DNA of 64,000 nt from an uncultured Clostridia bacterium. Its GTDB lineage: Bacteria > Bacillota > Clostridia > TANB77 > CAG-508. The notes under the pieces are model-generated. The model made no database searches, was not told the origin of the DNA, and saw nothing but the letters and a program-made list of their open reading frames with translations. The stretch spans positions 1,084 to 65,083 of the forward strand of contig CALXXZ010000001.1 of assembly GCA_944392805.1 (NCBI GenBank), given 5' to 3'. The position numbers were made by a program, and so were the translations under genes. This document shows, in pieces, positions 35,316-37,800 of this stretch (its first letter is position 1; each line of letters begins with the position of its first letter).

Positions 35316-35954
35316 CTATTTAATATTTTTACTTCTATTAATAATATATTCAACAGGTTTATAAACTGATGTATAAGGATTGCAATTTATACTACTAACT
35401 TCTCTTCCACCTCTAAGTTGTTCTCTTTCTAATTTTTTACTATTTTCTATTGCTATATTTGTTTTATCTTCAATAACATTATATATATTCATATTCTTTT
35501 CATAATTTGGAATATAACTTTTTAAATCATTTATTAGTTCTTTATTAGAAAAATATACTTTGCTTGTATATGAATAGTGTAGTCTATACCATAACTCAAA
35601 ACAAGGTGTAGAAATAATAATCTCTATTCCATTTTCTAATGCTAATTTTATTGCCTCATCTATTCTTTTTTGTTTATTAATATCTATATCAGTATCAAAT
35701 ATACAATATATTTTATCATCATTTTCTATATTTATATCTTCTTTTTTCATATAGCAAATTAAGCTTTTAACCATATTAACTGGATCTGTATCATTTCCAT
35801 AGGCAAATTTTAAGTTATATGGATTATCTCGTTTTTGGAAATTTCTAAAGTATATTTCTTCCGTTTTATTTTTTCCTTCAAATTCAAATAATATATTTTC
35901 TTTTGTTCTTTTACTCTTTCTATTTCTTTGAATTTGTTCTATTCTTCTGGCCAT
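35316..35954 (-). CDS. RloB-like (TOPRIM-like) protein, partner of the AAA15 ATPase (AbiLii-like)
   Basis: 212 aa; IFDTDID (DxD) and ISTPCFELWYRLHY match the RloB-family SNPCFELWLLLHF signature; overlaps the upstream ATPase by 16 nt. Confidence 0.6.
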   Translation of the reverse strand: MARRIEQIQRNRKSKRTKENILFEFEGKNKTEEIYFRNFQKRDNPYNLKFAYGNDTDPVNMVKSLICYMKKEDINIENDDKIYCIFDTDIDINKQKRIDEAIKLALENGIEIIISTPCFELWYRLHYSYTSKVYFSNKELINDLKSYIPNYEKNMNIYNVIEDKTNIAIENSKKLEREQLRGGREVSSINCNPYTSVYKPVEYIINRSKNIK

Positions 35955-37198
35955 AAGTTATCACCCATAGCTATGAAAGGTATTGCACCATATCTTCCGT
36001 TAAGATATCCTTTTTGTATATTTTCTGTTTTTCTAACTGGAAAATCATCTAATGGATATAAATCTGTAGCCCCTTTCTTATAATCTTTTTCCGTGAACCA
36101 TATTTGGTCTCTTCTAAATAGATTCAAACTTAATAAATTAGTGTCATGTGTATTAAATATTAATTGTGCACCATTTTTGTTATATTCTTCACTATTAAAC
36201 AGCTTTACAATATATTTCACTAAAAATGGATGTAAACTTCTATCTAACTCGTCAACTATTAGTATTTTTCCTTCTTTCAAAACATGTAGCAAGATTGGAT
36301 TTAAAATAAACATATTCTGTGTACCTAATGATTCTTCACCTAAATCCAAACTAATATTTATTTCATTTCCTTTATCATCTATTATATTGTGGCTAGTTGT
36401 TACATTAAAACTTTTCGTTCCTTTTGGAAAAAATGCTCTCAATTCTGGTGGCATCATTGATAATTGTTCCTCTGGAATTTCTACATTAGAAACATTATAT
36501 CCATTTATATTAATTTCAGCTTCATTTAAAACATGTAATGAAAAATCTTTTAATTCTCCACTTTTATCATTATAATATTGCTCAAATGAAATACCTCTTA
36601 ATGGTTCATAATCAAATAATACATTTATTCCATTTGTAATAAAATCAAAAACTGGTTTAGTTTTTGCATAATTCCAAGTAGTAGCTGTAGCTAGTAAAAA
36701 TTTATTCTCCATGTTTTTCATTATAATATCTTTTAAAGCATTTTCTGTTATAGTGTGATGATAGTTATTTACTTTTGTTCTTTCGAAAATTTCTGTTTCT
36801 TTTCCATTTGGATAATAATATAAATATTCTTCATAGATTTTATCTTGATCAGCTGAGAATCCATATGCATATTTTATATTATCTATTACCATGATAAATT
36901 CAAATGAACTGGGTTTGGTTATATTCTTTTCATCAAATTTAAATGGATTTATAGGTAATTTCATTCCTGGTTGCATATTATTAGAATTTCTCATCATCAA
37001 TATAACGGCATTTATAGCTCTAAAAATATTAGTTTTTCCTGAAGCATTAGCTCCATATATTACTGCTGATTTTAAATATTTTTCATTTTTACATTCTATT
37101 AAATTTTCTGGTATCTCTTTATCAGAAGAAGCTAGCATGCTGAAAACTACTTTCTCATTTATAGACATAAAATTTTCAACACTAAATTGTACTAACAT
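35939..37198 (-). CDS. AAA15/AAA21-family ABC-type ATPase (AbiLi/RloA-like)
   Basis: 419 aa; Walker A GANASGKTN, Walker B ILIVDELD, H-loop FNTHD. Confidence 0.65.
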   Translation of the reverse strand: MLVQFSVENFMSINEKVVFSMLASSDKEIPENLIECKNEKYLKSAVIYGANASGKTNIFRAINAVILMMRNSNNMQPGMKLPINPFKFDEKNITKPSSFEFIMVIDNIKYAYGFSADQDKIYEEYLYYYPNGKETEIFERTKVNNYHHTITENALKDIIMKNMENKFLLATATTWNYAKTKPVFDFITNGINVLFDYEPLRGISFEQYYNDKSGELKDFSLHVLNEAEININGYNVSNVEIPEEQLSMMPPELRAFFPKGTKSFNVTTSHNIIDDKGNEINISLDLGEESLGTQNMFILNPILLHVLKEGKILIVDELDRSLHPFLVKYIVKLFNSEEYNKNGAQLIFNTHDTNLLSLNLFRRDQIWFTEKDYKKGATDLYPLDDFPVRKTENIQKGYLNGRYGAIPFIAMGDNLWPEE

Positions 37199-37538
37199 AT
37201 ATATACCTCCTAGTATAATCTTATTATATTATACTCTTTTTATTCAAATTTGTAAACAGTTTTTATAATTATTTTTGGTTTTTTTGCATTTTTTATGCAA
37301 TTTATAATAGTAAACATTAAAAAATATTGTTTTTATTTGCATATATTGCTTTTTTTATTCATTCGCTGTTGACTTTTTATAGATAATGTAGTATATTATT
37401 TATAGCAATAAAAAAATCCTAATGCTATAGTAAACATTAGAATTAATTATATAACCTTCGGCAAGTTATATTTGTTTTATTATAGCACGCGTTATTGTTA
37501 GAAGTCAATACTTCTAGGATGGAAATGGAGGAAATACT

Positions 37539-37769
37539 ATGAAAAAAAATCAACACGTCACACCAAAAGGTGACTTTTGGCAAGTAATCGGTGCTGGTAA
37601 TTTAAAAGCTACTAAATTGTTTGGCACTCAAAAAGATGCAATTGATTATGGCAGAGAAATAGCTAAGAATCAACATTCTGAATTAGTTATTCATAACACT
37701 CATGGAAGAATCCGTGATAAAGATAGTTATGGTAACGACAATTGTCCACCAAAAGATAACAAGTTTTAA
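37539..37769 (+). CDS. DUF2188 family protein
   Basis: 76 aa; QHVTPKGDFWQVIGAGNLKATKLFGTQKDAIDYGREIAKNQHSELVIHNTHGRIRDKDSYGND matches the DUF2188 pattern. Confidence 0.7.
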   Translation: MKKNQHVTPKGDFWQVIGAGNLKATKLFGTQKDAIDYGREIAKNQHSELVIHNTHGRIRDKDSYGNDNCPPKDNKF

Positions 37770-37771
37770 TG

Positions 37772-37800
37772 TAAAGGGATATCTTTATCCCTTTTTATAA
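37772..37800 (+). terminator. Putative intrinsic terminator after the DUF2188 gene
   Basis: AAGGGATATCTTTATCCCTTTTT hairpin plus T run. Confidence 0.45.

What the first reader, a model, noticed from the sequence alone, without database searches (positions are those of the whole stretch)
35316..37800. AbiL-like (RloA/RloB) defence pair plus DUF2188 inserted between pyrBI and the PBP gene
An AAA15/AAA21 ABC-type ATPase (Walker A GANASGKTN, LIVDELD, FNTHD) overlaps by 16 nt a 212-aa protein with the RloB signature (..FDTDID.., STPCFELWYRLHY, a TOPRIM-like DxD). This two-gene architecture is characteristic of AbiL/OLD-like split ATPase-nuclease anti-phage modules. A DUF2188 gene sits next to it in the opposite orientation. 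The trio interrupts an otherwise housekeeping stretch (pyrBI ... spoVD-like PBP) and looks like a small defence islet.
Basis: partly seen in the sequence, partly recalled or inferred. Interest (0 to 1): 0.6.

Follow-up and report, generated by a model that had tools for sequence, protein, structure and literature searches.

The report
AbiL-type phage-defence pair plus DUF2188
A small, horizontally acquired two-gene anti-phage module of the known AbiL type (an ATPase sensor plus a nuclease-like partner) sits with a small DUF2188 gene between two housekeeping genes; it is a correct but fairly ordinary call, and it appears to be cargo left behind by a mobile element.

Summary
A 419-aa ABC ATPase (35939-37198, minus strand) matches Pfam AAA_21 (3e-33) and PADLOC AbiLi (3e-95). 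It overlaps by 16 nt a 212-aa RloB protein (35316-35954), which matches Pfam RloB (4e-35) and PADLOC AbiLii (1e-22). A divergent 76-aa DUF2188 gene (37539-37769) matches PADLOC candidate PDC-S16 (2e-34). All ATPase motifs, and an E...DxD pattern laid out as in Toprim domains, are invariant among homologues.

The closest related species has the PBP gene and pyrB 134 nt apart. Other relatives carry different cargo in that slot, for example a restriction-modification system.

The DUF2188-AbiL block (35273-37803) is 85% identical in DNA to a block in another bacterium. There it is cargo of a ~7.5-kb large-serine-recombinase element that splits the orthologous PBP gene. A still closer copy lies beside a Mob relaxase, and a contig from the same sample joins a matching AbiLi end to a recombinase and a zeta toxin. 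The window keeps a decayed remnant of one element gene but has no recombinase.

Verdict: a new member of the known AbiL family, a split OLD/PARIS-like ATPase plus Toprim-like nuclease. Its mechanism is inferred, not shown. A possible ~65-nt antisense RNA next to DUF2188 is the only unexplained extra.

The parts
35939..37198 (-). abiLi-like gene: 419-aa Rad50/SMC-type ABC ATPase (proposed sensor/antitoxin)
35316..35954 (-). abiLii-like gene: 212-aa RloB protein (proposed Toprim-like nuclease effector/toxin), overlapping abiLi by 16 nt
35273..35313 (-). AT-rich hairpin plus T7: likely terminator of the abiL operon; also the right end of the block shared with L105
   Evidence: Read from the sequence. 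The homology to L105 ends at 35273. The consensus scan did not call it because the stem is AT-rich.
37228..37256 (-). abiL promoter TTTACA-17-TATAAT
   Evidence: 11 of 12 consensus match. Conserved in all seven aligned abiL upstream regions from different contexts.
37284..37300 (.). Palindrome TTGCAT-N5-ATGCAA about 28 nt upstream of the abiL -35; possible operator
   Evidence: Conserved, fully or partly, upstream of abiLi in every context examined.
37410..37508 (-). Candidate ~65-nt small transcript: promoter TTGACT-18-TGcTATAAT (37508-37479), hairpin 1 (37471-37449), hairpin 2 plus U7 terminator (37444-37410). It is antisense to the predicted DUF2188 5'UTR.
   Evidence: Promoter 11 of 12 with an extended -10. 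RNA fold z -3.45 on this strand against -0.5 on the other. Conserved in L105, L109 and L114 with substitutions only in loops. No Rfam match. Not verified experimentally.
37369..37397 (+). Promoter-like site TTGACT-17-TATATT for DUF2188
   Evidence: The -35 is conserved in the block copies.
37539..37769 (+). 76-aa DUF2188 gene (PADLOC candidate PDC-S16), divergent from abiL
   Evidence: Pfam DUF2188 3.8e-24 and PADLOC PDC-S16 2.4e-34. 89-91% identical copies sit next to abiL in L105-L107, L109 and L114. Homologues occur in prophage lysogeny modules and on 489 plasmid records.
37776..37796 (+). Hairpin GGGATA..TATCCC plus T-run: likely DUF2188 terminator
   Evidence: Read from the sequence.
37874..37978 (-). 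Decayed 35-codon remnant of element gene 'o124' (intact in L105 next to DUF2188)
   Evidence: tblastn 51% over 35 aa, E 2e-7; tblastx to L105-L107.
38130..38145 (-). GC-rich terminator hairpin downstream of the PBP gene; the left limit of the foreign DNA lies between here and 37978
38360..38385 (-). Unoccupied att-like sequence (CACCAAGGAGGTGG|TGTCGCAGCACC) inside the 3' end of the PBP gene. This is the point where the serine-recombinase element is inserted in L105.
   Evidence: Junction comparison.
35240..35268 (-). pyrB promoter (TTGACA...), conserved with relatives; marks the resumption of core sequence
   Evidence: Homology to L005/L006/L003 extends to 35251-35268. Compared by eye with L002.

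Best explanation
This is a horizontally acquired AbiL-family abortive-infection, toxin-antitoxin-like anti-phage module.

abiLi and abiLii form one operon with its own sigma-A-type promoter and terminator. The 16-nt overlap points to translational coupling.

AbiLi is a Rad50/SMC-like ABC ATPase. It most likely oligomerises and holds the small RloB protein AbiLii, a Toprim-like metal-dependent nuclease, inactive. A phage-derived cue, either a protein or an abnormal nucleic-acid structure, would change the ATPase and release or activate AbiLii. AbiLii would then cut nucleic acid, most likely tRNA or another RNA. That would stop translation and abort the infection.

The divergent DUF2188 gene travels with the pair as one 2.5-kb block in a sub-lineage. 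It is probably a separate small defence-linked or regulatory gene and not an obligatory third subunit.

The block is cargo derived from a large-serine-recombinase mobilisable element. It now sits, without a recombinase, in a variable slot between a PASTA-less spoVD-like PBP gene and pyrBI.

Shown here: family identity, intact motifs, operon anatomy, insertion and mobility. Inferred: complex formation, trigger, substrate and abortive outcome.
For: Family identity: PADLOC AbiLi 3.3e-95 and AbiLii 1.3e-22, Pfam AAA_21 and RloB. The window's AbiLi scores higher on the AbiLi HMM (317 bits) than a lactococcal prophage pair annotated as abortive phage resistance proteins (254 bits).

Functional integrity: all ABC ATPase motifs and the RloB E26/D87xD89 residues are invariant. 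The identical proteins recur in four metagenome samples.

Folds: AbiLi matches Rad50/SMC heads and the defence ATPases PtuA, retron ATPases, AriA, OLD and GajA. AbiLii is an alpha/beta fold with E after strand 1 and DxD after strand 3. It gives weak hits to OLD/GajA, DnaG and RecR.

Operon: the 16-nt overlap is conserved in homologues and the promoter is conserved.

Insertion and mobility: the site is empty in L002, and other cargo (a Bsp6I-like REase, a C5 MTase and an AAA_14 ATPase) sits at the same junction in L006. The block is 84.7% identical in DNA to L105, where the flanking PBP gene is only 71% identical. L105-L107 carry it with a large serine recombinase inside a split PBP gene. L114 carries it next to a Mob_Pre relaxase, and L119, a second contig from the same sample, carries a matching AbiLi C-terminus, AbiLii, a serine recombinase and a zeta toxin. 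Homologues lie on 188 plasmid and 10 phage records.

Literature: AbiL is grouped with PARIS and OLD as an ABC ATPase plus TOPRIM system (PMC11464382, PMC13064643). An RloB:AAA pair from Clostridium algidicarnis was validated as toxin:antitoxin (PMC10440598). AriB and P2 Old are tRNases (PMC11464382; 10.64898/2026.07.10.737580). Lactococcal AbiL acts after phage transcription (PMC13064643, citing Deng 1999).
Against: No experiment exists for this locus or for any close homologue.

The mechanism of the founding AbiL system is itself unknown.

AbiLii is not a DUF4435 (AriB-type) protein, so analogy with PARIS is by architecture only.

GC content (24.9% against 27.2% for the window) gives no independent sign of foreign origin.

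No direct repeats flank the insert, and the att-like site in the PBP gene is unoccupied. How the block reached this exact position is therefore unresolved.
Confidence: 0.8

Rival explanations
1. The pair is mainly an addiction (post-segregational killing) toxin-antitoxin module. It stabilised the mobile element that carried it and has no real anti-phage role in this host.
For: An RloB:AAA pair behaves as toxin:antitoxin in E. coli (PMC10440598). The pair rides on mobilisable elements next to another TA toxin, zeta, and on many small plasmids.
Against: The founding AbiL confers phage resistance (PMC13064643). Here the element has lost its recombinase, yet both genes remain intact with invariant motifs. 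Addiction and defence are not mutually exclusive.
Confidence: 0.1
2. The unit is a three-part cassette. DUF2188 (replaced by DUF3892 in a relative), together with an antisense small RNA, is a functional partner of AbiL, acting as regulator, trigger adaptor or second effector.
For: DUF2188, the 340-nt spacer and abiL are conserved as one block at 85% DNA identity in the window, L105-L107, L109 and L114. L110 has a DUF3892 gene in the same divergent position with a similar promoter-hairpin-terminator layout. Both families have been predicted to be defence-linked (10.1101/2022.04.27.489752, citing Burroughs & Aravind 2020).
Against: Most abiL pairs examined lack any such neighbour: L082-85, L086-89, L100-104, L121 and L122. 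DUF2188 occurs alone in prophage lysogeny modules and on plasmids, and PADLOC models it as a single-gene candidate. Other DUF2188 loci do not show the antisense layout.
Confidence: 0.12
3. The pair is an RloA/RloB-type accessory of a type I restriction-modification locus, as in Campylobacter.
For: The RloB family was first noted inside type I R-M operons (PMC10440598). A relative carries an R-M system in the same slot.
Against: No hsdR/M/S or any methyltransferase lies within 5 kb of the pair in the window. None appears in most homologous contexts either.
Confidence: 0.03
4. The islet is a decaying, non-functional remnant of an element.
For: The recombinase has been lost, a neighbouring element gene has decayed to a 35-codon remnant, and about 330 nt beside it is unassigned non-coding DNA.
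Against: All three ORFs are full length. Catalytic residues are invariant and the promoter and terminator are intact. The proteins are identical across four metagenome samples.
Confidence: 0.05

Closest known systems
AbiL (AbiLi/AbiLii) of Lactococcus lactis plasmid pND861, as modelled in PADLOC/DefenseFinder
   Same: Two overlapping co-oriented genes, an AAA_21 ABC ATPase followed by a ~200-aa RloB protein. Both PADLOC HMMs match strongly. Like AbiL, it is carried on mobile DNA.
   Different: Only about 25-28% identical to a lactococcal prophage AbiL-like pair. It is chromosomal, sits in an uncultured gut Clostridia lineage, and is linked to DUF2188. No phenotype is known.
PARIS (AriA/AriB)
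   Different: AbiLii is RloB, not DUF4435/AriB. It has no sequence match to AriB models, and the published superposition of AbiLii on AriB is poor (PMC13064643). Stoichiometry and trigger are unknown.
P2 Old / class 1-2 OLD nucleases and Gabija GajA
   Different: In those systems the modules are fused in one polypeptide, and Gabija adds a UvrD-like helicase. Here they are two proteins with no helicase. hhalign of RloB against P2 Old was negative.
Clostridium algidicarnis TOPRIM_OLD(D44, RloB-like):AAA(D29) toxin-antitoxin pair (NetFlax)
   Same: The same domain pair and gene logic in a Clostridium. It was shown experimentally to be toxin plus neutralising ATPase (PMC10440598).
   Different: Its sequence relationship to the window pair was not measured here. 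That pair has not been shown to protect against phage.
Tn4451-like mobilisable elements with a large serine recombinase (resemblance recalled from my own knowledge)
   Same: Relatives of the block are carried together with a large serine recombinase, a Mob_Pre relaxase and a zeta toxin.
   Different: The window has no recombinase or relaxase, only the cargo and one decayed element gene.

Membership tests
AbiL (PADLOC/DefenseFinder definition) | A protein matching the AbiLi HMM | tested here: met
   PDLC02335 AbiLi, E 3.3e-95, 316.9 bits; the next best model is AriA at 8e-32.
AbiL (PADLOC/DefenseFinder definition) | A protein matching the AbiLii HMM / Pfam RloB | tested here: met
   PDLC02337 AbiLii 1.3e-22; PF13707 RloB 3.7e-35 against a gathering score of 31.5 bits.
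AbiL (PADLOC/DefenseFinder definition) | The two genes adjacent and co-oriented, ATPase first | tested here: met
   16-nt overlap, same strand. The same layout appears in every homologous locus.
AbiL (functional definition) | Confers abortive-infection-type phage resistance and requires both genes | not testable with these tools
   Needs phage challenge of cells expressing the pair.
ABC ATPase + Toprim (OLD-like) defence systems | ABC ATPase fold with Walker A, signature-like motif, Walker B, D-loop and H-loop | tested here: met
ABC ATPase + Toprim (OLD-like) defence systems | Effector with a Toprim fold: conserved Glu after strand 1 and DxD after strand 3 | tested here: inconclusive
PARIS (AriA/AriB) | Effector of the AriB / DUF4435 family | tested here: not met
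   AbiLii matches only the AbiLii model in PADLOC and only RloB in Pfam.
Gabija | Fused ATPase-Toprim GajA plus a UvrD-like helicase GajB | tested here: not met
   The proteins are split and there is no helicase gene nearby. GajA HMM hits are only weak and partial (1e-8).
RloAB inside type I restriction-modification loci | Embedded among hsdR/hsdM/hsdS genes | tested here: not met
   The neighbours are pyrB, DUF2188 and the PBP gene.
PDC-S16 (PADLOC single-gene defence candidate; DUF2188) | Protein matching the PDC-S16 HMM | tested here: met
   PDLC04941 2.4e-34 and PDLC04942 3.4e-33. The candidate itself has no demonstrated function (own knowledge).
Large-serine-recombinase integrative/mobilisable element | Recombinase gene and recognisable element ends at this locus | tested here: not met
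   No recombinase homologue anywhere in the window (tblastn) and no flanking repeats. Only the cargo block and a remnant of element gene o124 are present. Intact elements are seen in L105-L107, and parts of one in L114 and L119.

The most novel reading that the evidence does not exclude
The conserved 2.5-kb block is a three-part unit and not a pair plus a bystander. In this reading, a small DUF2188 protein (interchangeable with DUF3892 in a relative) is controlled by a strongly promoted ~65-nt cis-antisense RNA. That protein acts with AbiL, for example as a regulator of abiL expression through the conserved TTGCAT-N5-ATGCAA palindrome, or as a second effector or trigger adaptor. The whole cassette spreads as cargo of serine-recombinase elements that target the 3' end of a spoVD-like sporulation PBP gene.
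Probability: 0.1. Interest if true: 0.6.

Novelty: new member of a known kind. Interest (0 to 1): 0.3.

Why it matters
AbiL has been known since 1999 and is widely detected by defence-finding software, yet it has no mechanism. This locus adds a clean, compact example from an uncultured, very AT-rich gut Clostridia lineage, with all catalytic residues intact and a defined promoter and terminator.

It shows how such modules move: as cargo of serine-recombinase mobilisable elements, left behind in a variable slot next to a cell-wall gene.

It could serve as a test case for two questions. Do RloB-type effectors work like PARIS AriB or P2 Old, by tRNA cleavage released from an ATPase sensor? Do the small DUF2188 and DUF3892 genes that accompany some copies have a role?

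In itself it does not change what is known.

Tried and rejected
- **Flanking direct repeats or a tRNA as an integration signature.** None were found. Only chance-level AT-rich repeats turned up, and the nearest tRNAs are at 9.9 kb.
- **Known RNA families across 33500-40600.** Nothing relevant was found; the only hits are a terminator hairpin at 40.1 kb.
- **PDB sequence searches with AbiLii, its profile, and AbiLi.** No meaningful hits.
- **Foldseek of AbiLii against PDB.** Not significant. The afdb50 library was unavailable.
- **hhalign of the RloB profile against P2 Old.** Negative. The ATPase profile against P2 Old gave only a marginal match over the signature/Walker B/H-loop region.
- **IMG/VR scan with the AbiLi alignment.** No confirmed relatives.
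- **Strain-level empty site.** Every contig carrying the exact PyrB, PBP, AbiLii or DUF2188 protein has the same arrangement, so no presence/absence polymorphism within the species was seen.
- **Covariation support for the candidate small RNA.** Five sequences that are too similar make the test uninformative.
- **The antisense layout at three unrelated DUF2188 loci (two prophages, one plasmid).** Not seen there.
- **GC content as evidence of foreign origin.** Not discriminating.
- **Simple integration at the att site used in L105.** Rejected for the window, because that site inside the PBP gene is intact and the block lies downstream of the stop codon.
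Full report
**1. What is there**

The three ORFs are exactly as described.
- A 419-aa protein is encoded at 35939-37198 on the minus strand.
- A 212-aa protein is encoded at 35316-35954 on the same strand and overlaps the first by 16 nt.
- A divergent 76-aa protein is encoded at 37539-37769.

Pfam assigns them to AAA_21 (3.2e-33), RloB (3.7e-35) and DUF2188 (3.8e-24). PADLOC assigns them to AbiLi (3.3e-95), AbiLii (1.3e-22) and the single-gene candidate PDC-S16 (2.4e-34). NCBIfam has no specific model for any of them. The flanks are pyrB-pyrI-ddl on one side and a PBP_dimer+Transpeptidase protein followed by a MazF-family gene on the other. 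AAA_15 was not matched.

**2. The proteins**

In an alignment of 29 AbiLi homologues (51-91% identity), the following are invariant: Walker A (G49xxxxGK55[ST]), a signature-like ESLGT (289-293), Walker B (D316 E317), the D-loop aspartate D319 and the H-loop histidine H351.
- The next matches are the defence ATPases PtuA (17.8), retron ATPases (16-18), AriA (14.2), OLD (12.6) and GajA (11.9).

In 32 AbiLii homologues, E26-G27, D87, D89, E120, W122 and H126 are invariant.
- In the model (pLDDT 88.9), E26 directly follows strand 1 and D87xD89 closes strand 3 of a beta-alpha-beta-alpha-beta-alpha-beta core. That is the Toprim layout.
- Foldseek is not significant, although OLD, DnaG and RecR recur among its weak hits.
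- hhalign against P2 Old is negative.

**3. Operon anatomy**

A TTTACA-17-TATAAT promoter (37256-37228) lies upstream of abiLi. A palindrome, TTGCAT-N5-ATGCAA (37300-37284), lies about 28 nt further up. Both are conserved upstream of abiLi in seven different loci. An AT-rich hairpin with a T7 tail (35313-35273) follows abiLii. Next comes the pyrB promoter, which is conserved with relatives. The 16-nt overlap recurs in all homologous pairs examined, which suggests translational coupling.

**4. Insertion and origin**

Eighty loci from related species were recovered with PyrB as the query.
- In the closest one (L002; PyrB 95% identical, DNA about 81-86% identical), the PBP stop and the pyrB start are 134 nt apart.
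- L006 carries a Bsp6I-like endonuclease, a C5 methyltransferase and an AAA_14/DUF4143 ATPase in the same gap.
- L007 carries an unknown 219-aa ORF there.
- L003 and L004 carry larger, different cargo, and in L005 the PBP gene is inverted.

The junction is therefore a variable slot.

The abiL pair alone (37336-35327) is 87% identical in DNA to a copy in L082, downstream of a PBP gene that is only 66-70% identical in protein. It is 78% identical to a copy in yet another context.

The most informative comparison is with L105-L107.
- Window 37803-35273 (DUF2188, spacer, abiLi, abiLii and terminator) is 84.7% identical over 2545 nt to a block in those loci. The adjacent PBP genes are only 71% identical.
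- In L105 the block lies inside a ~7.5-kb insertion. It carries four further ORFs and a 568-aa large serine recombinase (Resolvase + Recombinase + Zn_ribbon_recom). The insertion splits the PBP gene at the codons for HQGG|GVAAP, leaving a separate PASTA-domain ORF.
- A near-repeat, ATCAAGGAGGnGG, flanks the insertion.
- L114, with a still closer AbiLi (96% identity), has a Mob_Pre relaxase, the element gene o124 and DUF2188 upstream of abiLi.
- L119, a contig from the same sample, carries a matching AbiLi C-terminus (67 aa identical to the window's), abiLii, a related recombinase and a zeta toxin. That L114 and L119 are two pieces of one element is my inference from these shared ends; it was not shown by assembly.

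The window has no recombinase. It does retain a 35-codon remnant of element gene o124 at 37978-37874. The att-like site inside its PBP gene (38385-38360) is intact, and the block lies beyond the stop codon. So the block did not arrive by simple integration at that site, and the exact route is unresolved.

GC content is not informative (24.9% against 27.2%). No flanking repeats or tRNA genes were found. All contigs from four metagenome samples that carry the identical proteins show the same arrangement.

More distant AbiLi homologues occur on 188 plasmid records, often annotated next to an 'RloB family protein'. They also occur in 10 phage or prophage records, including a lactococcal prophage pair annotated as abortive phage resistance proteins.

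**5. DUF2188**

The gene accompanies abiL only in the sub-lineage that shares the 2.5-kb block (window, L105-L107, L109, L114). Other abiL pairs lack it. In L110 a DUF3892 gene (Pfam 2e-7) occupies the same divergent position.

Homologues of the DUF2188 protein sit in the lysogeny-control region of streptococcal and lactobacillal prophages. They also occur on 489 plasmid records. Both DUF2188 and DUF3892 have been predicted to be defence-linked (10.1101/2022.04.27.489752, citing Burroughs and Aravind 2020). All three window proteins also match PHROG families of unknown function.

**6. An unexplained extra**

On the abiL-coding strand, inside the spacer, lies a near-consensus promoter with an extended -10 (37508-37479). 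Two hairpins follow, the second with a U7 tail (37471-37410).
- The RNA fold is unusually stable on this strand (z -3.45; -2.6 and -4.1 in two other copies) and not on the other strand (z -0.5).
- The resulting ~65-nt transcript would be antisense to the predicted 5'UTR of DUF2188.
- It is conserved in all block copies, with changes only in loops, and L110 has an analogous layout.
- Rfam has nothing and covariation could not be assessed. Three unrelated DUF2188 loci do not show the layout.
- I report it as a lead only.

**7. How it most likely works**

AbiL is placed with PARIS, OLD, Gabija and MADS among systems that combine an AAA_15/21 ABC ATPase with a Toprim nuclease (PMC11464382, PMC13064643). 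Four published results bear on the mechanism:
- An RloB-type protein from Clostridium algidicarnis is toxic and is neutralised by its ATPase partner (PMC10440598).
- PARIS AriB and P2 Old are tRNases released or opened when the ATPase senses a phage cue (PMC11464382; 10.64898/2026.07.10.737580).
- Lactococcal AbiL blocks phage development after transcription (PMC13064643).
- The mechanism of AbiL itself is still unknown (PMC13064643).

The best-supported model is therefore this. AbiLi oligomers sequester AbiLii. A phage cue releases or activates it. RNA, probably tRNA, is cleaved; translation stops and the infection aborts.

Identity, intact motifs, operon structure and mobility are shown here. 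Complex formation, trigger, substrate and outcome are inferred.

**8. Verdict**

This is a new member of a known kind, an AbiL-family defence pair with an adjacent DUF2188 candidate gene. It is best described as cargo derived from a serine-recombinase mobilisable element, stranded in a variable slot between a PASTA-less spoVD-like PBP gene and pyrBI. Interest is modest. The candidate antisense RNA and the recurrent DUF2188/DUF3892 neighbour are the only features that go beyond routine annotation.

Noticed in passing
window 37410-37508 (- strand): A near-consensus promoter is followed by two hairpins and a U7 terminator. This is a candidate ~65-nt small RNA, antisense to the predicted DUF2188 5'UTR. 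It is conserved in all copies of the DUF2188-AbiL block and has no Rfam match.
   Followed up: partly
L110 8965-9294 (-), upstream of abiLi at 9602: In a relative whose AbiLi is 78% identical, a DUF3892 gene takes the divergent position that DUF2188 holds in the window. It has a similar promoter-hairpin-terminator layout in the spacer.
   Followed up: partly
L105 1972-11436 (also L106, L107): A ~7.5-kb element with a large serine recombinase splits a spoVD-like PBP gene at the HQGG|GVAAP codons, stranding the PASTA domain as a separate ORF. The PBP reading frame also carries two apparent frameshifts. It could be a developmentally excised intervening element in a sporulation gene; this was not tested.
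   Followed up: partly
window 38305-40086 (-): The PBP is 593 aa and lacks the C-terminal PASTA domain that its 664-aa orthologues in L006 and L007 have. L002 (589 aa) and L005 (588 aa) also lack it, and in L005 the gene is inverted relative to pyrB.
   Followed up: partly
window 40167-40523 (-): A MazF/PemK-family toxin gene (Pfam 3e-35) has only 107 nt of upstream spacer. No antitoxin-sized ORF is called upstream of it; the only other small ORF in the stretch overlaps the mazF start. It is followed by a 30-nt perfect-stem terminator at 40111-40171.
   Followed up: partly
window 28650-31556 (-): A cluster encodes a DUF5305 protein, a signal-peptidase (Peptidase_S26)-like protein and a 192-aa secreted protein, reminiscent of tapA-sipW-tasA. 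In relative L004 the homologous cluster lies between the PBP gene and pyrB, which shows how fluid this neighbourhood is.
   Followed up: no
L090, L091, L093, L096 (contig ends inside abiLi): Several independent metagenome assemblies of this organism break inside the abiLi gene. That fits closely related copies in co-resident genomes confusing the assembler.
   Followed up: no
window 31759-32754 (+): A 331-aa ORF between the secreted-protein cluster and ddl has no Pfam or PADLOC match. It is conserved at about 40% identity in L004 and L005.
   Followed up: no
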